A stretch of 32,000 bases of DNA from Raphidiopsis brookii D9 (GTDB taxonomy: Bacteria; Cyanobacteriota; Cyanobacteriia; Cyanobacteriales; Nostocaceae), in assembly GCA_000175855.1 (NCBI GenBank), contig ACYB01000038.1:94243-126242 (forward strand). The letters run 5' to 3'. A model generated the notes under the pieces. The model was given only the letters and a program-made list of their open reading frames with translations. It searched no databases and had not been told where the DNA came from. Below, piece by piece: positions 225 through 26,474 of the stretch. Each line of letters opens with the position of its first letter. Positions within the stretch are counted from its first letter, which is position 1. The position numbers and the translations under genes were made by a program.

Positions 225-2063
225 TTATCTACTACTGATCGGTTTTGGAGTTGGTATGGGGTTGTGGGTTTGACCCGGTAAAACCTGTTGGGCAACCTTT
301 TGAGCTGCTTGTTTAAACAATGGTTCTAGTTTATCTTGCCAGTATTTAATATTAGGCAACTTTTCTGGTTCGTTGCGATAGGCCAAGACCTTTTCCCATT
401 GTCCGCTGTCAACAGCACGATTAATTTCATTAGCCAAAGTCTCAGCTTTGGCCCAGTCTTGTTGCCATTGGTCAATTATCTTCAATTGCTGACCATTAGA
501 AGTGGTTTTTTGGGGAGCGGATTTCAGTTGAGCTATTGCTCCCTTCACATCCCCTGACTGGAATTTTTGTCGAGCTTGTAGAACGATTGGATCTTGAGAC
601 TCTGTATCAGCAGATTGAGACAAGAATGGGGATGGAGGGGTAGTAGGAGATAACTGAGGTTTAGGCACTATTCGAGATGTAATTAAAGGTAAATCATCAA
701 CGATTTGAAGAGAAACACCCTGGTCTCGCAGACAAGAGACCCATTGGTCATTGTTAGTAATCACATCGGAATGAGCCCAGGCCAAACGACCAGATTTAAG
801 TTTAACTTCTATCCAACCACGCTTAGTTCTTTTTCCGGTAACAATAAACTCACTAGGATCACCAATACTCTTTAAAATATTATCAGAACTAATGGCGCTA
901 GGTTGGGAGCGCACATTAGAATTTGGTGCTACCATGGCCAAACAATTTTCTGGAGATGTGCCATTCTTATCCTTCCAATTAGCAGTCAAGGTTTGAATGT
1001 TGGGATATAAATTGCCTACTAAAGCTGCTGCACCACCGACCAAAAATAAACCAATTACCAGTGGTAAGAGATCTGGTTTTTGTTCCTGTTTAGGAGCAGA
1101 TACTAGGGGAGGAGTGTGAACAGGTGCCAAAGCTAAGGTAGGTTGTGGAAACAATGAAACAGATTGATTATGGGCTTTTATGGGTAATTTTTTTCCACTG
1201 GGTGTGGGAGATAGGGAGTAACCGAAGGATTTAGCATATTCTTTTATAAACTCTCGACAAACTTCTAATACTTCTGTTGCCGTTTGATAACGTTCCTTGA
1301 AGTGATAACGCACCATTTTGCTGAGAATTTCCCCCAGACGGGAATTGACAGGTCGAAAATGTTGCCAGAGAATTTCACCGGTATCCGGATCCTCTGGAAA
1401 CTGATTAGCAGCTATTCCTGTTAAAGCTTGAATAGCAATGATACCCAAAGCATAAATATCACTACTTGGGCGAGGTTTACCCTGTCCTTGCTCAGTAGGC
1501 ATATAACCAGGAGTGCCAACAATTATAGTGGGATTTAATTGATGTTCTGAAAGAACAGAAGGACAACGTACTTGTTTGACAGCTCCAAAATCCACAAGCA
1601 CCAGTTTGTAATCATCCACACGACGAATCAGATTGTCAGGTTTTATATCCCGGTGAATCACCCCCTGCTGATGGACAAATTCCAAAACTTCTAAGATTTC
1701 CAAGAGGAATTGTATGACTTGGTTTTCACCCCATGGTTGTCCGGGTATAAGTTCCATTGTCAGGGTATGACCATCAATGTATTCCTGAACCAGGAAAAAT
1801 TCCTGATTTTCATCAAAATAAGCCAGTAACCGAGGTATTTGATCATGATTACCCAATTTTTCCAAGGTTTCAGCTTCATTATTAAACAGACGTTTAGCAG
1901 TTGTAAAAATATGCTTGTCATTACTAACCAGTTTTAGATGTTTAACAACACAAATAGGATTACCAGGTCGCCGAGTATCTTGAGCGATGTAGGTTTGACT
2001 AAATCCCCCAGTTGCTAAAACACGCACAACTTTATATCTATGGTCTAGTAGTTTGCCTATCAT
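225..2063 (-). CDS. Membrane-spanning Hanks-type Ser/Thr protein kinase with an extracytoplasmic SH3b-like domain
   Basis: 612-aa ORF. Kinase motifs are a Gly-loop LATGGFSQTY, VVKHL (VAIK-like Lys), catalytic loop HRDIKPDNLI, DFG (VDFGAVK) and GTPGYMPTEQ. One TM helix is present (LLPLVIGLFLVGGAAALVGNLY). An SH3b-like segment follows (NVRSQPS...GWIEVKLKSGRLAWAHSDVI). Confidence 0.9.
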   Translation of the reverse strand: MIGKLLDHRYKVVRVLATGGFSQTYIAQDTRRPGNPICVVKHLKLVSNDKHIFTTAKRLFNNEAETLEKLGNHDQIPRLLAYFDENQEFFLVQEYIDGHTLTMELIPGQPWGENQVIQFLLEILEVLEFVHQQGVIHRDIKPDNLIRRVDDYKLVLVDFGAVKQVRCPSVLSEHQLNPTIIVGTPGYMPTEQGQGKPRPSSDIYALGIIAIQALTGIAANQFPEDPDTGEILWQHFRPVNSRLGEILSKMVRYHFKERYQTATEVLEVCREFIKEYAKSFGYSLSPTPSGKKLPIKAHNQSVSLFPQPTLALAPVHTPPLVSAPKQEQKPDLLPLVIGLFLVGGAAALVGNLYPNIQTLTANWKDKNGTSPENCLAMVAPNSNVRSQPSAISSDNILKSIGDPSEFIVTGKRTKRGWIEVKLKSGRLAWAHSDVITNNDQWVSCLRDQGVSLQIVDDLPLITSRIVPKPQLSPTTPPSPFLSQSADTESQDPIVLQARQKFQSGDVKGAIAQLKSAPQKTTSNGQQLKIIDQWQQDWAKAETLANEINRAVDSGQWEKVLAYRNEPEKLPNIKYWQDKLEPLFKQAAQKVAQQVLPGQTHNPIPTPKPISSR

Positions 2064-2730: not shown

Positions 2731-2976
2731 CTCTCCCCCACGCACAGTGTCCAGGTAGTGCATTGACTGTTATAGCTTTTTTAGTATCCCTACAGCATAG
2801 TCCCAAATACTAATGTAGGGGATATACACATACACAATAGTTCACCGGTTCTCAGCGATTTTTTCCATGCTCCGGTTTGGGTAATTAATGACTGGTTCAC
2901 AATTTGTTTGGTTCAGCTTGCATGAAAATCCCCGTTGTGCATAAAATTACAATGAACCTAATTGGGAATTTCACAA

Positions 2977-4218
2977 ATGTGGCAAGTAATAAAAGACATA
3001 ATTGAAAAATTGCAAAGTTGGTGGGGTGGATTGAGAGATCATATTTTCGGGAAAGAACCAGATATTATAGATGATGGTGGTGATGGGGACGGAGAGGAAT
3101 CCGAAACAGGAGGTTCTGGAGAAAAAATTCCAATAATCGACGACTTCGATTATGGCCCTATTATTGATCGTCTTCCTCCAACAAAGATCTTCCCGAAAGA
3201 AATTTTATTTGAGCATCCCAGTGATAAAATTGATTCGCTCCAGAAAAAAGTTTTAGAAATTTTATTTTCTCGATTCAACTTATCAGCAAAAGAGGGTGAT
3301 AATTATGTTGCCTATTTTCCGTCTCGGTTGCTTTCTTATATTAAACAAAAAGATGCCTTTTTTGCCTTTAGGCAATTTCTTAATGACATCGGCACAACAC
3401 CCGATGAAGTTTTTAAAAACCGAGAAATAGCAAATTTTGTCAAAGAGGCAATTTTGGGGCTTTATGAAGCTGATGTCAACCGTTGGGATACTCCCCTTTC
3501 TACTGAACCTCTGTATCAAAAACTAAAACAATCCATTAATTGCCATAACTTAGATGACTTTATTAACCTGCTAAATAAACTGGAAAAATTTGCCATTCTT
3601 GCCCACCAAATAGAAAGATTGATCGGTAAAATTCCCTTTCACGAGTTTGACCAATTTTCCCAGGAAGTAAAATCTCAATTAAAAGAATGGCATACTATAC
3701 CGGAAAAAACTGTTAATCAGTGGAAGAATTCACTGAACAAATATGAAAGCCAATCTACAAATTACCAAAATCTTTGTAAGCAAATTTCTCAAGATTTTCT
3801 GCGAGTAGAATCATTGTCCCTAACATCGGAACAAACTATCGTTATTGAATATTTATTAAAGGAAGTAGAGCAACTTAAAAAACTACTGCAAGTTGGACCA
3901 GTTGAACTCGATGATGGGATAGAACAACTGGAAATTTTAGCCGATGAAATCAAGGGATTTGTTGATGAAGTTTCATATCGTCATAGAGAGGCCGAAAGTT
4001 CGAGAACAGAAGATGTTCCACCCAAAAATAATAAATTATCCCTGGATGAGGCATTAATACTACTCAGTCTAACCCTAGAAACACTCACACTCCAATCACT
4101 CAAAACATCACGCAATAGATATGCCAGAATTCATCACCCTGATATAGGTGGAGATGAAAAAATGATGAAAAAAATTAATCAGGCCTACGAAATCTTGAAG
4201 GAGTACTTAGAAATCTGA
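2977..4218 (+). CDS. Orphan protein with a C-terminal J-domain (DnaJ-like, HPD motif)
   Basis: The ORF is open from TTG 2962. The first ATG is at 2977 (MWQVIKDII...). The C-terminus reads LSLDEALILLSL...LKTSRNRYARIHHPDIGGDEKMMKKINQAYEILKEYL, which matches J-domain helices I-III with HPD at nt 4135-4143. The N-terminal part has an acidic Gly/Asp linker (DDGGDGDGEESETGGSGE) and a long helical region with no family I recognise. Confidence 0.8.
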   Translation: MWQVIKDIIEKLQSWWGGLRDHIFGKEPDIIDDGGDGDGEESETGGSGEKIPIIDDFDYGPIIDRLPPTKIFPKEILFEHPSDKIDSLQKKVLEILFSRFNLSAKEGDNYVAYFPSRLLSYIKQKDAFFAFRQFLNDIGTTPDEVFKNREIANFVKEAILGLYEADVNRWDTPLSTEPLYQKLKQSINCHNLDDFINLLNKLEKFAILAHQIERLIGKIPFHEFDQFSQEVKSQLKEWHTIPEKTVNQWKNSLNKYESQSTNYQNLCKQISQDFLRVESLSLTSEQTIVIEYLLKEVEQLKKLLQVGPVELDDGIEQLEILADEIKGFVDEVSYRHREAESSRTEDVPPKNNKLSLDEALILLSLTLETLTLQSLKTSRNRYARIHHPDIGGDEKMMKKINQAYEILKEYLEI

Positions 4219-4352
4219 AGTAAAAATAACTAACCGGATAGATCTTCATTTACGGATCTTCTTTACAAATCTTAATATACTTTGCTACTAGCAAGTTTTA
4301 GGATTGATTAGAATAAAAAAAATACGTATTATTCCCTACTACTTACACCCCA

Positions 4353-5102
4353 ATGCGCCAGGAACCGATTAAAAATCCTCCGGATCATCTCAAGACTCAG
4401 GATCACCAGTCACTGAAACCACAACGCGAACTGAGAAATTATGATGATCTAATCAAACAATATGCTAAGCCAACCCGAATTATAGGTCTGGTAGATGCAA
4501 CGGGTTCAATGAAACCATTGTGGGACAAAACAGTACAGAGTATTCAAGAACTGATCCGTCGAATCCTGGAAACGGGAAAAATTGAGCTTTCTTGGGTTGC
4601 TTACCGAGATTATTGCGATCATCACAGAATTATTGAACAAAGTAATTGGAGCGACTCGGTTGAATATCTCAAAACCTTTATGGCAAAAATCGTCTGTAAT
4701 GGTGGTGGAGACTTTCCTGAAGCTGTGGAAAAAGCCTTAGAGGTTGCAATTAATGAGTCTGAGGTTTCTAGGGTTATCCTCATTGGTGATGCACCTCCTC
4801 ATGCGGATAAAGATTACCGAAGTAAGGCAATTCAACTAGGGAAACTTAACAGGCCTGTTTTTAGCTTTGTTGTTGGCAATCACACCGACACGAAAAGAAC
4901 CTTCGGAGAAATTTCAGATCTTTCGCGTGGAGTTTCTTTTAACCTAGAAAATGAGGATGATATTTTGGATTTAATTGCAGTTACTGTTATAGATCAAATT
5001 GGGGGTCAAAAGTCTTTAGGTAAATATTTAGATGCTTATGGCTCTAAGTTATCTCCCAGCGTCAAAAACTTTATTCAACAACTTCCTCCAAGCAAAAAGT
5101 AG
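4353..5102 (+). CDS. Cytoplasmic von Willebrand factor A (vWA) domain protein with a MIDAS-like site
   Basis: 249-aa ORF. IIGLVDATGSM is a DxTGS variant of the DxSxS MIDAS motif. The beta-alpha pattern SWVAYRDYCD...NGGGDFPEAVEKAL...RVILIGDAPPH includes the second MIDAS Asp. No signal peptide or TM helix is visible. Confidence 0.8.
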   Translation: MRQEPIKNPPDHLKTQDHQSLKPQRELRNYDDLIKQYAKPTRIIGLVDATGSMKPLWDKTVQSIQELIRRILETGKIELSWVAYRDYCDHHRIIEQSNWSDSVEYLKTFMAKIVCNGGGDFPEAVEKALEVAINESEVSRVILIGDAPPHADKDYRSKAIQLGKLNRPVFSFVVGNHTDTKRTFGEISDLSRGVSFNLENEDDILDLIAVTVIDQIGGQKSLGKYLDAYGSKLSPSVKNFIQQLPPSKK

Positions 5103-5112
5103 AAAGCAGATT

Positions 5113-6066
5113 ATGAGCTTGATCAAAATCTTTAAAATAGTCTATTTAGTTGGCATAGTTTTGTCGGGAGTGTTGACATTTGTTTCCTCTGACAAGAACA
5201 ATACCGAAATTAGTAAATTAGTCTGGTTAGTTGGTGTGAGTCATGTTTTCGTACTAGCCATGATAGGTTTTAGGATGGAAAGATCTAAAGATAAAGCTGC
5301 TGCTGGACTGAGAGTACAGACATCAGGTTATCTGCATACGTTGATAGGATTCAGTGGTGCTTTATTTCAACTAGATCCCCAAAATTTATTGGCAACCATT
5401 GTGGTTCCTTTAAGTTACGCCCTATTCACCAGTATTATCGGTTGGTTTTTTGGTGGAGAATTAGTAAATGAATTCGATGGGGGAGGAGCGGTAGATATTG
5501 GCAATGAAGGAGAGCGAATTGCCCAAGAGTTTCACATTTTTGCGGAGAACCTTGGCCGAGAATTTCAGAGTTTTGCAGATAGCTTGAGTGCAATTCACGA
5601 GCAATACAGTCGCAAAATAGAAGATGCTTCAAACTCTTTTGAAAGTCAGCTACAAAAAGTAGGAGCAGCTTATAAAGGAATGGTGGATACACAGGAAGTT
5701 CAATTTGATAGATTGAGCAAAAAACAGCTTGATTTATTGGCTCAATTAGAAGATTATCAAAAAAGGTTCATAGATAGTCAGAATAGCTGTTACGGTAAAA
5801 TGGATAATGCTATTCAGGAGTCTATTAATTCATCGGATAAATTAAACGCCAGTGTTGATGCTTTGACTAGTGCTTTATCCACAAAGGAACTATTCTCCAT
5901 AACTAGCAATTTTGTATACCTAAGTGAACAGACAAAAGTAGCATCAGATAATATGGAACAAGTGGCAACTACATCTAAAAATGTCGCTAAATACTTGGAG
6001 GAGAGTAAAATTTTAATCGACCAACTGGAAAAGTTATTAAGTTCAATTAACTCTTATCGGAGGTAA
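5113..6066 (+). CDS. MotA/ExbB/TolQ-like 4-TM channel subunit with a long helical cytoplasmic tail (ZorA-like architecture)
   Basis: ATG 5113 lies 10 nt after the vWA stop, so the 5032 start in the ORF track would overlap the vWA gene. Four hydrophobic helices fall in aa 1-115. The last pair, LHTLIGFSGALFQL...PLSYALFTSIIGWFFGG, resembles the conserved GLLGTVxG...A(L)xTTxxG(L) signature of MotA/TolQ/ExbB TM3-TM4. About 200 aa of heptad-like helical sequence rich in Q/E/K/S follows. Confidence 0.65.
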   Translation: MSLIKIFKIVYLVGIVLSGVLTFVSSDKNNTEISKLVWLVGVSHVFVLAMIGFRMERSKDKAAAGLRVQTSGYLHTLIGFSGALFQLDPQNLLATIVVPLSYALFTSIIGWFFGGELVNEFDGGGAVDIGNEGERIAQEFHIFAENLGREFQSFADSLSAIHEQYSRKIEDASNSFESQLQKVGAAYKGMVDTQEVQFDRLSKKQLDLLAQLEDYQKRFIDSQNSCYGKMDNAIQESINSSDKLNASVDALTSALSTKELFSITSNFVYLSEQTKVASDNMEQVATTSKNVAKYLEESKILIDQLEKLLSSINSYRR

Positions 6067-6072
6067 AGACTA

Positions 6073-6693
6073 ATGCAAATTAGAAGCAATATGGAACAAG
6101 CAGAGATTTTTGTTTTTATCGCTTCCTTCTTTCTGATTGCTCTTGGTTTTAAGGAACCAGATGGGCCAGTCAAAAAGCCGTCTGAACATCCACCAATCAT
6201 TCTATTTCCTGAATCTTCCAGGTATAACTTTCGTTCAGGTCGTGCTGAATTAAGTTCGGAATTTAGGGATCATATTCGCACTAAACTGAAACCAAAAATT
6301 TTGGAAGTTGTCAAACAATACAAGGATATTGACGCTATTGAGGTGATTGGTCATACTGATGGCAGGCCAATTAATAGTGTTGAACAATCCATCTCAAGTC
6401 ACAATAGCAATTTGGATAATAATTTAGAGAGGGTTAATCTAGGCAAATTATCTGTATCCAGATTGCAACCTGGCTCTAATACCGATTTAGGTATTATGAG
6501 AGCTTTGGCTGTTGTCCAGGAACTGAAACAATCCGGAGGGGGAATTTCAAAACTCAATCTCCGTGCCTATTCTGCAGGACAGTTATTATTGGAAGATGGT
6601 CAACCAGCACCAATAGATACAACAGATAACCCTGAAAGAAGACGAATAGAAATTCGTTTCACAAAATTGGGTCGTACTCAGGTTTTTAAATAG
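6073..6693 (+). CDS. MotB-like protein: N-terminal TM anchor plus OmpA-type peptidoglycan-binding domain
   Basis: GGAGG (6059-6063) sits 9 nt upstream of ATG 6073 and abuts the upstream stop codon (TAA 6064-6066). One TM helix is present (IFVFIASFFLIALGF). OmpA_C-like motifs are IEVIGHTDGRPIN, NTDLGIMRALAVVQEL, AYSAGQ and NPERRRIEIRF. Confidence 0.8.
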   Translation: MQIRSNMEQAEIFVFIASFFLIALGFKEPDGPVKKPSEHPPIILFPESSRYNFRSGRAELSSEFRDHIRTKLKPKILEVVKQYKDIDAIEVIGHTDGRPINSVEQSISSHNSNLDNNLERVNLGKLSVSRLQPGSNTDLGIMRALAVVQELKQSGGGISKLNLRAYSAGQLLLEDGQPAPIDTTDNPERRRIEIRFTKLGRTQVFK

Positions 6694-7168
6694 GGGTTCC
6701 TATTGGAAAATTTCGTTTTAAGAATTTCGTTTTACTTTGGCGATCGCATGATTTGCGCCATACAAAAAACCAACTGGCGATCGCTCTTTTAATTTCAAAT
6801 AACTTCACATAGCAAAATGGAAAATTATGAGTTTTAGACCACCATATAAATATGTCTAATACGGGAATTAGCTCTTAAGTTACCTAATTTTTTTAGTCTT
6901 GTCAAGCAGGATATTCTTGTGTTCTTGCAAGTTCTCGTTAATAAGTAGCAAAATCTACTAAATATATTATGACATGATTATAGTTACTAAAATAGTTGCT
7001 TAAATGGGACAAAGGCAAAAAAGATGATCTTACCTGTCAACATTATGAGTTAGGATAGAAAATTAGCATTTCTTTGATGAAATATCCCTATTAAATTGTT
7101 GATTGTTGGGATTTTATGGACAAAAGTCCACCAGATGGCAGTAGTATCCTCTCCTAAGTTGGGGACAT

Positions 7169-7191
7169 TGTCTCCCGCTGTAGGGGAGACA
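7169..7191 (+). promoter_or_regulatory. Stable hairpin in the mgtE 5' leader, just upstream of the Shine-Dalgarno sequence
   Basis: TGTCTCCC-gctgtag-GGGAGACA is an 8-bp perfect stem with a 7-nt loop. AAGGAGG (7193-7199) and the GTG start at 7206 follow. Confidence 0.45.
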
Positions 7192-7205
7192 TAAGGAGGT
7201 GAATC

Positions 7206-8555
7206 GTGCTAACACAAGATGTTCGCAACGCTTTGGATGTTGCTGACTTAAACAAACTCAAATATGATTTAAATAGTCTCCAACCGGTAGACGTAGGAGA
7301 GTATATTTCAGAATTGCCAGAACAACAAAGGGCGATCGCATTTAGGTTGTTAAACAAAAATCAGGCCATTGATGTTTTTGAGTACTTACCTACAGATGTG
7401 CAGGAGGAACTGATTAATTCCTTGCATGATGTTCAGGTGGTACATTTAGTAGAAGAAATGAGTCCTGATGAAAGAGCGTATTTATTTGATGAATTACCTG
7501 CAGGGGTAGTTAAAAGACTATTACAACAACTTAGTCCGGAACAAAGACAAGCAACCGCGACAATTTTGGGATATCCCGAAGGTACCGCAGGTAGAGTCAT
7601 GACTACAGAGTATGTCCGGTTGCGTCAAGGATTAACAGTGGGGGAAGCATTAAGTAAAATTCGTCTTCAAGATGAAGATAAAGAAACTATTTACTATGCT
7701 TATGTAACCGATGATAACCGTAAGTTAGTGAGTGTAGTCTCTTTGCGTCAGTTGTTATTCACCTTTCCAGAAGTTTTCATCAGGGATATTGCTAGTTCCC
7801 AGGTAGTGAAAGTGACTACAGAAACTCCCCAAGAAGAAGTGGCGCGGATCATGCAGCGTTATGATTTAATTGCCATACCCGTAGTGGATCGGGAGGATAG
7901 ATTAGTAGGAATTATCACTATTGATGATGTGGTTGATATTTTACAAGAGGAGGCCACAGAGGATATTCAAAAATTGGCAGCGGTAAGTGGTGATGAAGAG
8001 GCCTTATCCCCACCCCATTTGACCATTCGCAAACGCTTACCCTGGTTATTGGGGATTATGGCATTGTATATTGGTGCAGCTAGTGCGATCGCTCCTTTTC
8101 AAAAAGTAATTGCTGCGGTTCCGGTTTTAGCGGTGATTATGCCCATATTTTCTAATACTGGAGGAACCGTGGGTATTCAGGCCTTAACCGTGACAATTCG
8201 GGGTTTAGGTGTGGGAGAGGTGACCACAAAGGATGCTGGGAAAATTTTGCGGAAGGAACTCATAGCAGGTCTAGGAACTTCCTTGGCTTTGGGTTCAACC
8301 ATGGTTCTACTTTCTTTGATTTGGGCAAAACCTGATGAAAAGTGGGTAGCTTTAATTGCTGGAATAGTAATGGCCACTAACACCATGGTTGCTGTGAGTT
8401 TGGGGACTTTATTACCCATGGGATTACAAAGGCTAAAATTAGATCCAGCTTTAATGAGTGGTCCACTGGTGACAACTATGTTGGATACTATTGGTTTTTT
8501 AACCTTCTTGAGCATGATTTCCCTTGCTTTGAAAGTATTTAATTTAAGCTATTAG
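7206..8555 (+). CDS. mgtE: Magnesium transporter MgtE
   Basis: 449 aa with a GTG start preceded by a strong SD. It has an MgtE N-domain, a CBS pair (...[25 protein letters not shown]...) and a C-terminal 5-TM domain with the [16 protein letters not shown] motif. Confidence 0.93.
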
Positions 8556-8586
8556 AGCTATTAAGCAGTATTATTTTCAGTTTAAC

Positions 8587-9588
8587 ATGTCAACGCCCGC
8601 AAATAATTGGAATCGTCATCATATTCTTTCTCTAGCTGATTTTACTGTAAATGAATATAATGCTGTTTTACAAACAGCAGCTTCATTTAAAGAAGTGTTA
8701 TCACGACGAACTAAAAAAGTCCCCACTTTACAAGGACAAGTGGTAGCCAATCTCTTTTTTGAACCTTCCACCCGCACCAGAAGTAGTTTTGAAATAGCTG
8801 CTAAAAGGCTAAGTGCAGATACTCTAAATTTCTCTAGTGCTAGTTCCTCTATGACCAAGGGAGAAACAATTTTAGATACAGCTAAAACCTATTTAGCCAT
8901 GGGTACAGATATTATGGTGATTCGCCATAAAGAAGCAGGAGTACCACAGGCGATCGCCCGGGAAATGGATCGTTTAGGTGTAAAAGTTAGTGTATTAAAT
9001 GCTGGTGATGGCCAACATGAACATCCCTCCCAAGGACTATTAGATTTATTCACAATTTGTAGTTTAATTGATCCAGAACAACCCAAAATTGAATCATTAG
9101 CAGGTAAAAAGATTGCCATTATAGGTGACATTTTACACTCACGGGTTGCCAGGTCTAATATTTGGAGTTTGACCACCAGTGGTGCCCAAGTACATCTAGC
9201 AGCACCACCAACCTTACTACCCAAATACTTTAGTGAGTATGTAGGATCACAGGGAAATTCCCGGAGTTTATTCATCCATTGGCAATTGGATCCAGCTTTG
9301 GAGGATGCTGACTTTGTCATGACTTTAAGGTTGCAAAAAGAAAGGATGACTGGTAACCTGTTACCCAGTTTAAGAGAATATCATCAATTATTTGGCATTA
9401 CCAGGCAGAGATTAAAAGCTTGTAAACCTCAAGTAAAAGTACTACATCCAGGTCCAGTAAATAGGGGTGTGGAAATCAGTTCAGATTTAATGGACGATCC
9501 AGAATTCAGCCTAATTCAAGATCAGGTGACTAGTGGTGTAGCTGTGCGCATGGCACTATTGTATTTTATTGGTGGTGGGAAAGGTTAG
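8587..9588 (+). CDS. pyrB: Aspartate carbamoyltransferase catalytic subunit
   Basis: Motifs [23 protein letters not shown] and [12 protein letters not shown] in a 333-aa ORF. Confidence 0.95.
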
Positions 9589-9644: not shown

Positions 9645-12083
9645 ATGCGTATCTCTTTCAATTGGTTACGGGAACTCGTAGAAATTAAACTAACTCCGGA
9701 AGAACTAGCTCATACCCTAACAATGGCGGGGTTTGAGGTGGAGAGTATAGAGGATCGTCGCACTTGGGCGGATGGCGTTGTCATAGGGAAAGTTATAAAA
9801 CGGGAGCAGCATCCAAACGCGGACAAGTTAAGTGTTTGCACAGTAGATATAGGCAGTGAGGAAACACTAAATATTGTTTGTGGCGCATCAAATGTGTGTG
9901 CTGATATTTACGTGCCAGTTGCGACCAAGGGGACTTATTTGCCCAATATTGATTTAAAAATCAAACCGACGAAGCTCAGAGGTGTACCTTCCAACGGGAT
10001 GATTTGTTCATTAAAAGAATTGGGTTTACCCACAGACATAGACGGGATTCATATTTTCAGACAAGAGGGTTTAACCCTAGGTAGGGAAGTAGGTCCCATC
10101 CTAGGTTTGGACGATGTGATTTTAGATGTCACAGCTACCGCTAATCGTGCAGATGCTTTATCCATGGTAGGGATTGCCAGGGAAATTGCAGCATTAACGG
10201 GTGGAAAGCTATCCCTTCCTCAACTAACAGGAGTAGAAATTACCCCCAGCACTGGGCAAAAAATCCGGGTGAAAATTTCTGAACAGCACGCTTGTCCTCT
10301 ATATATTGGTACCCTAATAGAAAACGTGAAAATTGCTGCTTCTCCTGAATGGTTGCAAAGACGTTTAATTGCTGCGGGTGTACGTCCAATTAACAACATA
10401 GTAGATATTACAAATTATGTGTTATTAGAAAGAGGACAACCTCTACACGCTTTTGATAAATCCAGATTAGAGCAGGTAGGTGGGGGAACAGATGTAACTA
10501 TTGGTGTGAGATTTGCTCAAGCTGGAGAAACTCTCAAAACCCTAGATGGACAAACCCGGAACTTATCTACTCAGAACTTATTAATTACCGCTAACAATCA
10601 ACCGGTAGCTCTAGCAGGGGTTATGGGTGGGGAAGAAACAGAGATTCATCCAGGTACAACTAGTTTATTTTTAGAAGCTGCACTATTCAATTCAGTCGCT
10701 ATTCGTCGTTCCTCTCGTAGTGTGGGTTTAAGAAGTGAAGCATCAGGAAGATACGAAAGAGGAGTCAATTGGGCAGAATTAGCAATAGCTTCTGACCGAG
10801 CTTTATCTCTCATGCAGGAGTTAGCAGATGCTAAAGTTGTTCATCAAGAAACTTCTGATTACCGTCCCGATAATGCTCTAAAGAATCATCCCATTATTTT
10901 GCGATTAGAGAGAATTAATCAAGTGTTAGGTCCCATTGATTTGGGCGCAGAAACGGGAGAGTTAAAAGCAGCAGATGTGGAAAGGATTCTCACAGCTTTA
11001 GGATGCGAACTAACTGATAATCAGGATGGTAGTTGGCAAGTGAAAGTACCATCTTATCGCTATTCCGATTTGGAAAGGGAAATTGATTTAATTGAAGAAA
11101 TTGCCCGACTTTACGGTTATGATAACTTTGTTGATACTCTACCAGAAAAAACGGAACCGGGTTATTTACCCTTAGACCAGGAACTACTGCGAAAATTACG
11201 TGGTTATTTAAGAGCAGAGGGTTTAACAGAGTTAATGCACTACTCCTTAGTCAAACCCGGTGAAGACAGGCAAATTCTTTTAAATAATCCTTTATTTACC
11301 GAATATTCAGCCCTGAGAACCGACTTGATTTCTGGTTTAATTGATGCTTTTGAATATAATCTACAGCAAGGAAATGGGGCGTTAAATGGTTTTGAAATTG
11401 GCACCATTTTCTCTAGAGAAGAAGAAGGACTAGAAGAATCACAAGTCATTGCAGGAATTATGGGAGGTGATACTACCGTCGGTAGATGGTTCAATGGTGG
11501 AAAAGAAAATCCCATGACCTGGTTCGCAGCAAAAGGTATTTTAGAAAATGTCTTTCAACAACTGGGAATGCAGGTAGAATTTCAACCAGAAAATCGAGAT
11601 AGAAGGTTACATCCCGGAAGGACAGCTTCCTTATGGTTAGGAGGAGCTAGACTGGGAACTTTTGGACAAGTTCATCCCCAACTCAGACGAGAAAAGAGTT
11701 TACCAGATGCAGTTTATGTCTTCCAATTAGATTTGGATACCTTACTCAGTACCCTGGATAATGATGAATTATTGATTCCTAAATTTAAACCCTATTCTAC
11801 CTATCCCGCAAGCGATCGCGATTTGGCGTTTTTCGCGTCTGTAAAAGTTACGGTTGGGGAGATTGAAAAGGTAATTACTAAAGCTGGTAAGGGGTTGCTA
11901 GAGTCTGTAGAAGTCTTTGATGAATACAGAGGTGAAAATGTCCCCATAGGACAAAGAAGTTTAGGTTTTCGGTTAGTTTATCGTGCGGTTGACCACACTT
12001 TGACTGATAATGAGGTTGAACCAATACACCATAAAATTCGAGAATCCCTAGTAGAAAAATTCGGTGTTACTTTGAGAAGTTAA
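9645..12083 (+). CDS. pheT: Phenylalanine--tRNA ligase beta subunit
   Basis: 812 aa. The N-terminal tRNA-binding domain reads [15 protein letters not shown]. The B3/4 and B5 regions and the C-terminal FDX-ACB-like end ([10 protein letters not shown]...) are present. Confidence 0.95.
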
Positions 12084-15616: not shown

Positions 15617-17092
<1,476 letters not shown>

Positions 17093-17117
17093 GTACAATT
17101 TTAGCACGTGGAATTGA

Positions 17118-26136: not shown

Positions 26137-26474
26137 AGTCTTGTGCAGATTATTAATTAACAAATGGTTTTTCTGTTTGTTTGTGATTTTTATACCCAAA
26201 AATATTAGTTTCCCTCTGATGCGGTAGGAACAATATTTTATTCTTGGTATAATTGTTTTGCTATACAATTAGCTTCTTCTGGCGTTTTCCCTGAACTTTA
26301 ACCAACCAACATTTTAATCGCCAAAAACTGTATCGTGAATGTATGATTTTGGGTATTTTTTTGTATTTTTTTTTGTATAAAATATTATTAACTTATTATT
26401 GTTAACTATTATTATTAACTGGTTAACCCATTTCCAATTCCCCAATTCCAGTAACTTATTACTAGTGTCTATGA

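What the first reader, a model, noticed from the sequence alone, without database searches (positions are those of the whole stretch)
2962..6693. Four-gene cluster pairing a flagellum-less MotA/MotB-type stator with a vWA protein and a J-domain protein: a Zorya-like candidate system with a different partner set
Four same-strand genes run in sequence:
- an orphan protein with a C-terminal J-domain (2977-4218);
- a cytoplasmic vWA/MIDAS protein (4353-5102);
- a MotA/ExbB/TolQ-like 4-TM protein with a long helical tail (5113-6066);
- a MotB-like protein with a TM anchor and an OmpA-type domain (6073-6693).

The last three genes are packed with 10-nt and 6-nt gaps, and the SD of the fourth gene abuts the stop codon of the third. 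This indicates one operon. The J-domain gene sits 134 nt upstream.

Cyanobacteria have no flagella. ExbD and TolR lack OmpA domains. So a MotA-like/MotB-like pair here is unlikely to be a flagellar stator or a Tol/Ton motor. The closest known logic is the Zorya anti-phage system, where a peptidoglycan-anchored ZorAB ion-driven complex signals through a long ZorA tail to cytoplasmic effectors. The Zorya partners I know of are ZorC/D, ZorE and ZorF/G, which are not J-domain or vWA proteins.

A J-domain implies recruitment of Hsp70/DnaK. A MIDAS vWA domain implies metal-dependent protein-protein capture. Together they suggest an envelope-sensing module wired to chaperone-mediated remodelling or to an abortive response. 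I know of no described system with this four-part composition.
Basis: partly seen in the sequence, partly recalled or inferred. Interest (0 to 1): 0.85.

Follow-up and report, generated by a model that had tools for sequence, protein, structure and literature searches.

The report
Zorya-like stator with chaperone-recruiting partners
A conserved four-gene operon in a Cylindrospermopsis-type cyanobacterium encodes an unannotated, distant relative of the ion-driven, cell-wall-anchored ZorAB/MotAB membrane complexes, together with a cytoplasmic adaptor ending in an Hsp70-recruiting J-domain and a metal-binding vWA protein; no paper or library searched here reports this partner set for such a complex.

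Summary
The four genes are real, co-oriented and tightly packed.

**Domain calls**
- Gene 4 is a MotB/ZorB-type protein. It has a transmembrane (TM) helix with an invariant Glu and an OmpA-like domain. Its family profile hits ZorB best, then PomB and MotB.
- Gene 3 gives no MotA_ExbB Pfam hit itself. Weak evidence from several methods still places its 4-helix core nearest to type II ZorA:
  - only ZorA2 models hit in PADLOC;
  - the one good Foldseek superposition is ZorA;
  - 15 of 150 family members give sub-threshold PF01618 hits;
  - the family HMM aligns to the TolQ/ExbB/MotA hairpin.
- Gene 2 is a cytoplasmic vWA protein with a MIDAS metal-binding motif.
- Gene 1 is not an orphan. It has a new "X" domain, a coiled coil and a C-terminal J-domain with HPD.

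**Synteny**
- The four-gene order recurs in at least 7 independent loci across phyla.
- It also recurs in a second paralogous locus in the same species.
- A–B, usually with X upstream, is the recurrent core. J+vWA is one output module; other loci carry a vWA–PP2C–kinase triad instead.

**Status**
- It matches no named system in the libraries and papers searched.
- Ion-driven, Zorya-like operation is inferred.
- A defence role is unproven; genomic contexts are mixed.

The parts
2977..4218 (+). Gene 1: X-domain / coiled-coil / C-terminal J-domain protein (413 aa)
   Evidence: ORF. Full-length homologues sit upstream of vWA-A-B in other loci.
3238..3621 (+). X domain (about residues 88-215). New domain, the conserved cytoplasmic partner of A-B.
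   Evidence: The short stand-alone X proteins (clusters K2 and K3) are homologous: hhalign probability 96%, E 2e-9. X lies directly upstream of A in 28 of 52 loci. No PDB relative by sequence profile. No Pfam hit on this region of the window protein.
4060..4215 (+). J-domain, with HPD at nt 4135-4143
   Evidence: The family profile hits TIM14 and DnaJ J-domains at E 2e-8.
4353..5102 (+). Gene 2: cytoplasmic vWA protein (PF25106) with MIDAS motif D48-x-T50-x-S52 and D146
5113..6066 (+). Gene 3 ('A'): ZorA/MotA-like membrane protein (317 aa)
5113..5481 (+). A transmembrane core: four helices, with the motifs QTxGYLHTLIGF (T76) and PLSYALxTSIIGW (T106/S107)
   Evidence: AF2 pLDDT 93. Conservation counts. 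ZorA2 and TolQ similarity.
5503..6063 (+). A cytoplasmic helical tail (about 190 aa) with the conserved tip VAKYLEESKILIDQLEKLL (from nt 5968)
   Evidence: Differences between strains are confined to residues 124-282 of the tail.
6059..6063 (+). Shine-Dalgarno GGAGG for gene 4, directly before the gene-3 stop codon
6073..6693 (+). Gene 4 ('B'): MotB/ZorB-like protein. N-terminal TM helix with invariant Glu11 (nt 6103-6105). OmpA-like domain with the motifs GHTD, SNxDLGxxRA and RRRIEIR.
225..2063 (-). Divergent membrane Ser/Thr kinase. Possible, unproven accessory; not part of the conserved cluster.
   Evidence: Kinases recur near A-B in other loci, but this one is absent from the paralogous locus.

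Best explanation
**Proposed complex.** Genes 3 and 4 encode a compact, previously unannotated branch of the MotAB/ExbBD/ZorAB '5:2' ion-driven inner-membrane complexes. It most resembles type II ZorAB.
- A is a roughly 120-residue four-helix core followed directly by a long helical tail. It is proposed to form a pentamer around a dimer of B.
- B's TM helix carries the ion-binding carboxylate, which here is Glu rather than Asp. Its OmpA-like domain anchors the complex to peptidoglycan.
- The A tails are proposed to bundle into a cytoplasmic rod.

**Proposed partners.**
- The rod's conserved tip, or the cytoplasmic face of the core, engages the X domain of gene 1.
- In this operon X is extended by a coiled coil and a C-terminal J-domain. 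The J-domain would recruit the housekeeping DnaK/Hsp70 to the complex.
- The co-inherited MIDAS vWA protein would act as the client-capturing or co-chaperone-like partner.
- The system would thus couple an envelope event (ion flow or peptidoglycan engagement) to chaperone-driven remodelling of a cytoplasmic target.

**Shown:**
- the gene order and its conservation;
- the domain identities of J, vWA and B;
- the invariant polar and acidic TM residues;
- the modular exchange of partners.

**Inferred:**
- 5:2 stoichiometry and ion flow;
- tail-X contact and DnaK recruitment;
- the biological role (defence versus envelope stress), which is unresolved.
For: **B subunit**
- The family profile's best solved relative is type I ZorB (8vvn_B, E 1.1e-6), then PomB and MotB. 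The entry's identity is given in PMC11890865.
- An invariant Glu sits at the N-terminal end of the TM helix in all 41 full-length B proteins. It is in the same register as MotB D32 (read from the sequences).

**A subunit**
- TM-core-only sequences scanned against 5027 PADLOC models hit almost only ZorA2 models: 6 of the 7 families returned, best E 4e-4.
- NCBIfam lists ZorA2 (E 0.015) and MotA (E 0.14).
- The only good Foldseek superposition in the PDB is type II ZorA: 8vvi_C, TM-score 0.68, rmsd 2.8 A over 91 columns, probability 0.97.
- 15 of 150 family members give sub-threshold PF01618 hits. In the three members inspected the hits fall on the region the family profile aligns as TM3-TM4.
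- The family HMM aligns its positions 73-115 to the homologous hairpin of TolQ (141-184), ExbB (144-186) and MotA (176-214). For the TolQ segment, 0 of 1000 shuffles reach the observed score.
- T76, T106 and S107 are kept in at least 90% of members, and G110 is invariant. This matches the Ser/Thr ring around the B-subunit carboxylate described for ZorAB and MotAB.
- The architecture matches S. kujiense ZorA, which has a core of about residues 1-100 and a rod of residues 100-378.

**Synteny**
- A and B are adjacent in 42 of 52 loci, and X lies upstream in 28.
- The full XJ-vWA-A-B order is found in L014, L031, L064-66 and L069-72.
- The tail-tip motif co-varies with the X subtype.

**J-vWA link**
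- J-vWA fusion proteins exist (P0058, P0076). A J+vWA pair also occurs without A/B.
Against: - The window A protein has no MotA_ExbB hit.
- A profile search against PDB sequences finds no MotA or ZorA.
- hhalign against single E. coli TolQ, ExbB and MotA sequences is negative.
- All Foldseek E-values are above 0.1.
- The A core lacks the large cytoplasmic domain of MotA and ExbB.
- The carboxylate is Glu, whereas the MotB, ExbD, TolR and ZorB sequences and papers examined here all have Asp.
- No multimer model or experiment exists.
- No DnaK gene is linked to the cluster.
- No recognisable enzymatic effector is present, so the output is unknown.
- The X-tail contact rests only on co-variation of motif types.
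Confidence: 0.55

Rival explanations
1. It is specifically a new subtype of the Zorya anti-phage defence system. ZorAB-like sensing of phage-induced envelope damage would activate J/vWA (or vWA-PP2C-kinase) effectors. This shares the mechanism of the best explanation and adds a specific role.
For: - The nearest relatives are ZorA2 and ZorB.
- Distribution is patchy: about 156 clusters among 1.84 billion representatives, in organisms labelled Cyanobacteria, Saprospiraceae, Pyrinomonadaceae and Thiotrichales.
- Partner modules are exchanged between loci.
- In L072 the cluster is followed by RadC, an Mrr-type nuclease and PD-T7-1 (E 5e-165).
- L070 has caspase and HNH neighbours, and L069 is flanked by transposases.
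- Caspase-domain neighbours occur in 5 loci.
Against: - No ZorC/D/E/F/G and no PADLOC match for the partners.
- In Cylindrospermopsis both copies sit between housekeeping genes at fixed positions. At the window locus the flanks are 99-100% identical between strains.
- The X-A-B loci L050-L061 lie between gyrA and asd/hemE.
- No nuclease or other killing effector is present.
- Absent from IMG/VR viral contigs, which is neutral.
- No phage assay has been done.
Confidence: 0.3
2. It is a housekeeping or stress-response envelope machine, analogous to Tol-Pal. A peptidoglycan-anchored motor would maintain or monitor the envelope, with X, J and vWA as cytoplasmic regulators or assembly factors.
For: - Core-genome-like positions in Cylindrospermopsis and in the gyrA-X-A-B-asd-hemE contigs.
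- Very high conservation of the TM core, B and vWA between strains.
- The minimal X-A-B version has no effector.
Against: - The family is rare and sporadically distributed.
- Partner sets are highly variable.
- A paralogous duplicate exists in one species.
- Some loci lie next to defence or mobile genes.
Confidence: 0.25
3. A and B form a static membrane-to-peptidoglycan tether or scaffold with no ion conduction. The resemblance of A to MotA/ZorA would be convergent, as for any generic four-helix membrane bundle.
For: - Every individual similarity of A to MotA, ExbB or ZorA is statistically weak.
- A four-helix bundle is a common fold.
Against: - A buried charged residue is invariant in B's TM helix (41 of 41), and polar T/S positions in A's TM3 and TM4 are nearly invariant.
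- The weak hits from independent methods all point to one family, namely ZorA2, MotA_ExbB and TolQ.
- The gene order and A-B coupling are those of the known 5:2 motors.
Confidence: 0.12
4. The J+vWA pair is a self-contained chaperone module that merely neighbours X-A-B and has no functional coupling to it.
For: - J+vWA occurs without A/B (L023-25) and as J-vWA fusions without A/B (L026).
- A 134-nt gap with a promoter-like site (4304-4332) separates gene 1 from genes 2-4.
Against: - The J-domain is physically fused to the X domain, which is the A-B partner.
- vWA_4 lies between XJ and A in every complete four-gene locus across distant taxa.
- The L023 J protein still carries X.
Confidence: 0.1

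Closest known systems
Zorya type II (ZorA2-ZorB2-ZorE), anti-phage system
   Same: - A has a compact TM core of about 100-120 residues followed directly by a long helical cytoplasmic tail.
- B has an N-terminal TM helix with a carboxylate and a peptidoglycan-binding OmpA-like domain.
- The genes are adjacent in the order A then B.
- ZorA2 models and the ZorA2 structure are the best, though weak, matches to A. ZorB is the best match to B.
   Different: - Similarity is far below family thresholds.
- B has Glu, not Asp.
- There is no ZorE HNH nickase.
- The partners are instead an X-domain protein (with or without a J-domain), a cytoplasmic vWA protein, or a vWA-PP2C-kinase triad.
- Anti-phage activity is untested.
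Flagellar stator MotAB/PomAB and Ton/Tol motors ExbBD/TolQR
   Same: - The A family HMM aligns to the conserved TM hairpin of TolQ, ExbB and MotA.
- 15 of 150 members give sub-threshold PF01618 hits.
- B resembles PomB and MotB in its OmpA-like domain and TM register.
   Different: - Cyanobacteria lack flagella (established knowledge).
- A lacks the MotA torque-generating cytoplasmic domain and the ExbB cytoplasmic domain.
- ExbD and TolR lack OmpA domains.
- No TonB, TolA or Pal genes are linked.
MoxR-vWA and Hsp70/DnaJ-containing chaperone-based conflict systems (Kaur et al. 2020, PMC7159879)
   Same: - A vWA domain is paired with a chaperone system.
- That paper also describes conflict systems with Hsp70 and DnaJ-fused components.
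   Different: - Here no MoxR, GTPase or dedicated Hsp70 is encoded.
- The J-domain would borrow the housekeeping DnaK.
- That paper mentions no MotA/ZorA-like membrane complex (0 occurrences of 'MotA').
TerY-P-type triad (vWA + PP2C phosphatase + Ser/Thr kinase)
   Same: Eleven related A-B loci carry vWA (PF00092), PP2C_2 and a kinase directly downstream of B.
   Different: - The window has no PP2C and a different vWA family (PF25106).
- The triad proteins of the related loci give no PADLOC hits apart from generic kinase similarity.
TM-tethered vWA 'force transducers' paired with TolQ-like motors (PMC12204202)
   Same: A 5:2-type motor is genetically coupled to a vWA protein.
   Different: - Those vWA domains are periplasmic and membrane-tethered. 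They either bind the motor like TolA/TonB or replace TolR.
- The vWA here has no TM segment or signal peptide and is cytoplasmic.
vWA/FtsZl1 operons with OmpA-like proteins and kinases (Makarova & Koonin 2010, PMC2875224)
   Same: Both show a recurrent association of vWA proteins, OmpA-like proteins, Ser/Thr kinases and uncharacterised membrane proteins.
   Different: No FtsZ-like or GTPase gene appeared among the common neighbour families here. That paper describes no J-domain adaptor.

Membership tests
MotA/TolQ/ExbB proton-channel family (PF01618), for gene 3 | Profile match at or above the curated threshold | tested here: not met
   The window protein has no PF01618 hit even at E<=1. 15 of 150 family members hit below threshold, best E 1.8e-4 against a GA of 22.9 bits.
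MotA/TolQ/ExbB proton-channel family (PF01618), for gene 3 | Conserved C-terminal TM hairpin with a Thr/Ser ring facing the B-subunit carboxylate | tested here: inconclusive
   Family HMM positions 73-115 align to TolQ 141-184, ExbB 144-186 and MotA 176-214. For TolQ, 0 of 1000 shuffles reach the observed score; for ExbB 7 of 1000; for MotA 51 of 1000. T76, T106 and S107 are conserved in at least 90% of members. The spatial arrangement was not testable.
MotA/TolQ/ExbB proton-channel family (PF01618), for gene 3 | 5:2 assembly with the B subunit and ion-dependent activity | not testable with these tools
   No multimer prediction or experiment was available.
MotB/PomB/ZorB-type B subunit, for gene 4 | N-terminal single TM helix with a conserved acidic residue near its cytoplasmic end | tested here: met
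   Glu11 is invariant in all 41 full-length family members. It is Glu rather than the Asp seen in the MotB, ExbD and TolR sequences and the ZorB description examined here.
MotB/PomB/ZorB-type B subunit, for gene 4 | C-terminal OmpA-like peptidoglycan-binding domain | tested here: met
   For the window protein alone, Pfam OmpA scores 21 bits, below the GA of 27.2. The family profile hits ZorB at 1.1e-6, PomB at 1.5e-5 and MotB at 5.5e-4. The motifs GHTD, DLGxxRA and RRRIEIR are conserved.
Zorya anti-phage system (types I-III) | ZorA and ZorB matching the system's models | tested here: inconclusive
   PADLOC ZorA hits to full-length A fall only on the tail (19 bits). ZorB2 scores 22.8 bits. The TM core alone hits six ZorA2 models at E 4e-4 to 0.1.
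Zorya anti-phage system (types I-III) | Subtype-defining partners ZorC+ZorD, ZorE or ZorF+ZorG adjacent | tested here: not met
   Genes 1 and 2 and the upstream ORF give no Zor hits. The neighbours are MgtE, PyrB and PheT.
Zorya anti-phage system (types I-III) | Protection against phage | not testable with these tools
   Requires an experiment.
J-domain proteins (PF00226), for gene 1 | J-domain fold signature with the HPD tripeptide | tested here: met
   HPD lies at residues 387-389 and is conserved in 11 of 12 homologues. The window protein scores 18.1 bits, below the GA of 27.8. The L014 orthologue scores 38.4 bits. The family profile hits about 45 solved J-domains, best E 2e-8.
vWA domain (PF25106 VWA_4), for gene 2 | Profile match above threshold and a MIDAS motif | tested here: met
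   36.4 bits against a GA of 27. D48-A-T50-G-S52, D120 and D146 are invariant across 23 homologues.
TerY-P-type triad | vWA + PP2C + Ser/Thr kinase encoded together | tested here: not met
   There is no PP2C in the window. The kinase at 225-2063 is divergent and absent from the paralogous locus. The triad is present only in the related 'type C' A-B loci.
Periplasmic vWA force transducers of TolQ-like motors | vWA protein with a TM helix or motor-binding helix and a periplasmic vWA domain | tested here: not met
   The vWA family has no hydrophobic N-terminal segment. Compare the description.

The most novel reading that the evidence does not exclude
A and B define a previously unrecognised, Glu-dependent branch of the 5:2 ion-driven rotary or signalling complexes. 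Its cytoplasmic rod would dock a dedicated adaptor domain (X). In this operon the complex would be wired through a J-domain to the housekeeping Hsp70 and to a MIDAS vWA protein. That would be a trans-envelope device converting an envelope or peptidoglycan event into chaperone-driven remodelling, used for phage defence or envelope-stress signalling. In sister loci the same chassis would plug into a vWA-PP2C-kinase phospho-switch.
Probability: 0.35. Interest if true: 0.85.

Novelty: new variant of a known kind. Interest (0 to 1): 0.68.

Why it matters
- Only a handful of 5:2 ion-driven complexes are known: MotAB, ExbBD, TolQR, GldLM, AglRQS and ZorAB. Each one revealed a new way of transmitting membrane energy.
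- This family would add a minimal ZorA-like chassis with swappable cytoplasmic outputs: the X adaptor alone, J-domain plus vWA, or vWA-PP2C-kinase.
- It would be the first such complex predicted to signal through Hsp70 recruitment.
- It gives a small, tractable set of point mutants to test how a Zorya-type tail passes information into the cytoplasm: B-E11, A-T76, HPD and the MIDAS Asp.
- It also gives a provisional functional label to three protein families that carry no family assignment in the libraries searched: A, B and X.

Tried and rejected
**Searches with negative or weak results**
- Direct Pfam, NCBIfam and PADLOC scans of the window A protein gave only coiled-coil noise and ZorA-tail hits.
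- phmmer and profile searches of A against PDB sequences found nothing relevant.
- hhalign of the A TM-core alignment against single E. coli TolQ, ExbB and MotA sequences was negative. Single-sequence templates are too weak for this.
- Foldseek with the full-length model was dominated by helical-repeat proteins. The TM-only model gave no significant E-values, only the ZorA superposition.
- The X-domain profile has no PDB hit.
- No A relative was found in IMG/VR.
- Five full-text searches combined vWA, MotA/ZorAB/Zorya, OmpA and J-domain/DnaJ/DnaK terms. None found a paper describing this composition. The only relevant hits were PMC2875224 and PMC12204202, and both describe different systems.

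- Alignment A4 was too diverse to seed a metagenome scan.
- The look-up of P0309, meant to prove that both paralogous loci share one genome, failed.

**Interpretations rejected**
- Flagellar stator: cyanobacteria have no flagella, and A has no torque domain.
- Ton/Tol motor: B has an OmpA domain, and no TonB or TolA is linked.
- Canonical Zorya I-III: the partner genes are absent.
- Canonical TerY-P: no PP2C is present.
- Periplasmic vWA transducer: the vWA here is cytoplasmic.
- Arms-race-type divergence as a reading of the extra strain-to-strain change in A and XJ. The differences sit in coiled-coil and linker segments, so relaxed constraint is the simpler reading.

Full report
**Observation**

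The four + strand ORFs exist as described: 2977-4218, 4353-5102, 5113-6066 and 6073-6693. The gaps are 134, 10 and 6 nt. A GGAGG lies directly before the stop codon of gene 3. Homologue N-termini support the ATG starts at 2977 and 5113.

The first 14 kb of the window is 97-98% identical in DNA to two Cylindrospermopsis raciborskii assemblies with the same gene order. The source is therefore a Cylindrospermopsis/Raphidiopsis-type cyanobacterium. The flanking genes are housekeeping: a divergent Ser/Thr kinase and a 162-aa ORF upstream, and MgtE, PyrB and PheT downstream.

**Domain identities**

*Gene 2* passes the Pfam threshold for VWA_4 (36.4 bits).
- Across 23 homologues the MIDAS-type residues D48-x-T50-x-S52 and D146 are invariant. 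So are AYRD, GGxDxPEAV and LIGDAPPH.
- There is no hydrophobic N-terminus, so the protein is cytoplasmic.

*Gene 1* scores only 18 bits for DnaJ in the window.
- HPD is present at residues 387-389 and is kept in 11 of 12 homologues.
- An orthologue passes the Pfam threshold.
- The family profile hits about 45 solved J-domains, best E 2e-8.

*Gene 4* alone is sub-threshold for OmpA at 21 bits.
- A 16-member family profile hits type I ZorB of Shewanella (8vvn_B, E 1.1e-6), then PomB and MotB. The entry's identity comes from PMC11890865.
- Its TM helix begins with a Glu that is present in all 41 full-length family members.
- By eye, AE-IFVFIASFFL aligns in register with MotB AD-FMTAMMAFFL (sequences).

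**Is gene 3 MotA/ExbB/ZorA-like?**

The window protein gives no PF01618 hit. Its PADLOC and NCBIfam ZorA hits lie only in the coiled-coil tail.

The family is small and carries no family assignment in the libraries searched.
- The word-indexed search found 31 clusters, none with a Pfam domain on the TM core.
- A TM-core profile found 156 clusters among 1.84 billion representatives, and the hit list stayed at family size.
- AF2 gives a confident four-helix membrane core (pLDDT 93) followed by about 190 residues of helix.

Five independent but individually weak lines converge on one family.
1. TM-core-only sequences scanned against 5027 PADLOC models return almost exclusively type II ZorA models: 6 of 7 families, best E 4e-4. 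NCBIfam also lists ZorA2 and MotA.
2. The only well-superposed PDB chain is type II ZorA: 8vvi_C, TM-score 0.68, rmsd 2.8 A over 91 columns, 22% identity. TolQ, PomA and MotA chains are also in the top 40, but all E-values exceed 0.1.
3. 15 of 150 members give sub-threshold PF01618 hits. In the three inspected, the hits fall on the region the family profile aligns as TM3-TM4.
4. The family HMM aligns its positions 73-115 to the homologous hairpin of E. coli TolQ, ExbB and MotA. Composition-preserving shuffles reach the observed score 0, 7 and 51 times out of 1000.
5. A always precedes the ZorB/MotB-like B gene, often with overlapping or near-abutting ORFs.

Two further points fit.
- T76, T106 and S107 are conserved in at least 90% of 126 members, and G110 is invariant. 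This matches the Ser/Thr ring around the B-subunit carboxylate described for ZorAB and MotAB.
- S. kujiense type II ZorA has a core of about residues 1-100 and a rod of residues 100-378, the same layout as here.

Against this, hhalign versus single E. coli sequences and profile-versus-PDB sequence searches were negative.

I conclude that A is probably a remote, compact member of the MotA/ExbB/ZorA superfamily and closest to ZorA2. I put this at about 0.7; it is not demonstrated.

**Conservation and modularity**

Scans of one-genome-per-species contigs and of metagenome contigs gave 22 and 34 loci. Four of the metagenome loci duplicate genome loci. ORFs were clustered across 52 non-redundant loci, counting the window.
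- B follows A in 42 loci. The loci without B include contigs that end within or just after A.
- Directly upstream of A lies a protein of 170-240 aa (clusters K2 and K3) in 28 loci.
- K2 and K3 are homologous to each other and to residues about 88-215 of gene 1. hhalign gives 96% probability and E 2e-9, and HMM E-values reach 1e-13.

Gene 1 is therefore this 'X' domain plus a coiled coil plus a J-domain. X has no PDB relative by sequence profile, and Pfam finds nothing on that part of the window protein.

The long J-bearing form co-occurs with the VWA_4 protein. Complete XJ-vWA-A-B clusters are found in:
- a Thiotrichales MAG (L014);
- L031;
- four unrelated metagenome contigs (L069-L072);
- a second, paralogous locus of C. 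raciborskii between era and dxs (L064-66).

Three truncated contigs (L001, L013, L038) are consistent with the same order.

J and vWA are linked on their own account.
- Two homologues are J-vWA fusions.
- One locus has XJ+vWA without A/B.

Eleven other A-B loci carry no X. They have instead a giant SPFH-vWA protein upstream and vWA (PF00092), PP2C and a kinase-GUN4 protein downstream.

The recurrent core is thus A-B, usually with X. J+vWA and the vWA-PP2C-kinase triad are alternative cytoplasmic modules.

The conserved tip of the A tail differs by partner type.
- With K3/J-type X it reads YLxES..LI..LE.LL.
- With K2-type X it reads IPSAGK.I..ID.FL.KLK.

This is consistent with a tail-X contact but does not prove one.

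**Role**

Context is mixed.
- *Housekeeping-like.* In Cylindrospermopsis both loci lie between housekeeping genes. At the window locus, flanking proteins are 99-100% identical between strains, and vWA and B are 97-99.6% identical. A is 90.5% identical: all 30 differences, including an 11-residue indel, fall in tail residues 124-282, while the TM core and tip are identical. XJ differs mainly in its acidic N-terminus and its coiled-coil linker. Many X-A-B contigs lie between gyrA and asd/hemE.
- *Defence- or mobile-like.* In L072 the cluster is followed by RadC, an Mrr-type nuclease and a strong PD-T7-1 match (E 5e-165). L070 has caspase and HNH neighbours. L069 is surrounded by transposases, and one is inserted between J and vWA.
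- *Neighbour survey.* Among 139 neighbour proteins, PADLOC found mostly generic kinase similarity and a few caspases.
- *Viral contigs.* The family is absent from IMG/VR contigs.

I cannot decide between a defence role and an envelope-stress role.

**Mechanism (inference)**

The reasoning is by analogy with ZorAB. There, peptidoglycan binding by ZorB, ion flow and the ZorA tail are all required (PMC11890865).
- A5B2 would sit in the inner membrane with B's OmpA-like domain on the wall.
- Ions would pass via Glu11 and the Thr/Ser ring.
- The bundled A tails would present their tip to X.
- The C-terminal J-domain of X would bring DnaK to the complex or to the vWA protein. A target-binding N-terminus with a C-terminal J-domain is the layout of auxilin (my own knowledge).
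- The MIDAS site of the vWA protein would capture a client.

Kaur et al. 2020 treat vWA as a peptide-binding co-chaperone of MoxR, and they describe Hsp70/DnaJ-containing conflict systems. The J+vWA pair may be a functional counterpart that borrows the housekeeping Hsp70.

**Comparison and novelty**

- The cluster is not a member of Zorya I-III. The partner genes are absent and the A and B matches are far below threshold.
- It is not a flagellar, Ton or Tol motor.
- The window itself is not a TerY-P triad.
- It is not the periplasmic vWA force-transducer type recently paired with TolQ-like motors.
- The vWA/OmpA-like/kinase theme of Makarova & Koonin 2010 is related in spirit, but that system is built around FtsZ-like proteins.
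- No paper in the searchable library combines Zorya/ZorAB or MotA with J-domain and vWA partners.

I classify it as a new variant of a known kind: a ZorAB-like chassis with a new adaptor domain and new output modules.

Noticed in passing
window 16999-17095 (-), upstream of ORF 15617-16990 (-): TPP riboswitch (RF00059, 62.6 bits, above the gathering score) in front of a 457-aa ORF. The ORF was not identified here.
   Followed up: partly
L064-L066 (C. raciborskii assemblies), genes at about 5276-9556: A second, paralogous XJ-vWA-A-B cluster lies between era and dxs in C. raciborskii. Its A protein is about 55% identical to the window's. Its tail length varies between strains (312-367 aa). Whether both loci share one genome was not proven.
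   Followed up: partly
window 5482-5958 (A residues 124-282) and 3130-3216 / 3835-4095 (XJ residues 52-80 and 287-373): Between strains, all A differences, including an 11-residue indel, fall in the tail. The TM core and tip are identical. XJ differences cluster in the acidic N-terminus and the coiled-coil linker. Flanking genes are 99-100% identical.
   Followed up: yes
window 225-2063 (-): Divergent Ser/Thr kinase with a hydrophobic segment after the kinase domain (read from the sequence only). Ser/Thr kinases recur beside A-B in 5 other loci (cluster K10), and the 11 'type C' loci carry a kinase in their downstream triad. This kinase is absent from the paralogous locus.
   Followed up: partly
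L010, L015-L019, L021, L039-L041, L054: An alternative A-B context: a giant SPFH(Band_7)-vWA protein upstream, and vWA (PF00092), PP2C_2 and a kinase-GUN4 protein downstream.
   Followed up: partly
L016:2954-4552 and L039:6294-7916: The protein between the SPFH-vWA gene and A matches PADLOC models of pAgo-associated SIR2-PNTD proteins (E 6e-12 and 1e-15).
   Followed up: no
L072:6968-9986; L070:682-3343 and 9911-10747; L069:2039-4950: Some four-gene clusters sit in defence- or mobile-type surroundings. L072 has RadC, Mrr_cat and PD-T7-1 (E 5e-165). L070 has caspase, lipase and an HNH homing-endonuclease-like gene. L069 has transposases, one of them inserted between the J and vWA genes.
   Followed up: partly
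P0058, P0076; L023-L025; L026: J-domain/vWA_4 fusion proteins exist. An XJ+vWA pair also occurs with no A/B nearby. This argues that J and vWA form a unit of their own.
   Followed up: partly
P0003 (orthologue of window 5113-6066): One public source names the A orthologue 'MgtC/SapB family protein'. No search here gave an MgtC-type hit, so this looks like a misannotation.
   Followed up: no
alignment A5 (vWA family): The only solved structure hit by the vWA family profile is 8s05_A, deposited as 'Conserved protein' (E 1.9e-5).
   Followed up: no
window 26383-26420: Short 13-nt tandem repeat (2.8 copies) in an intergenic stretch. Probably trivial.
   Followed up: no
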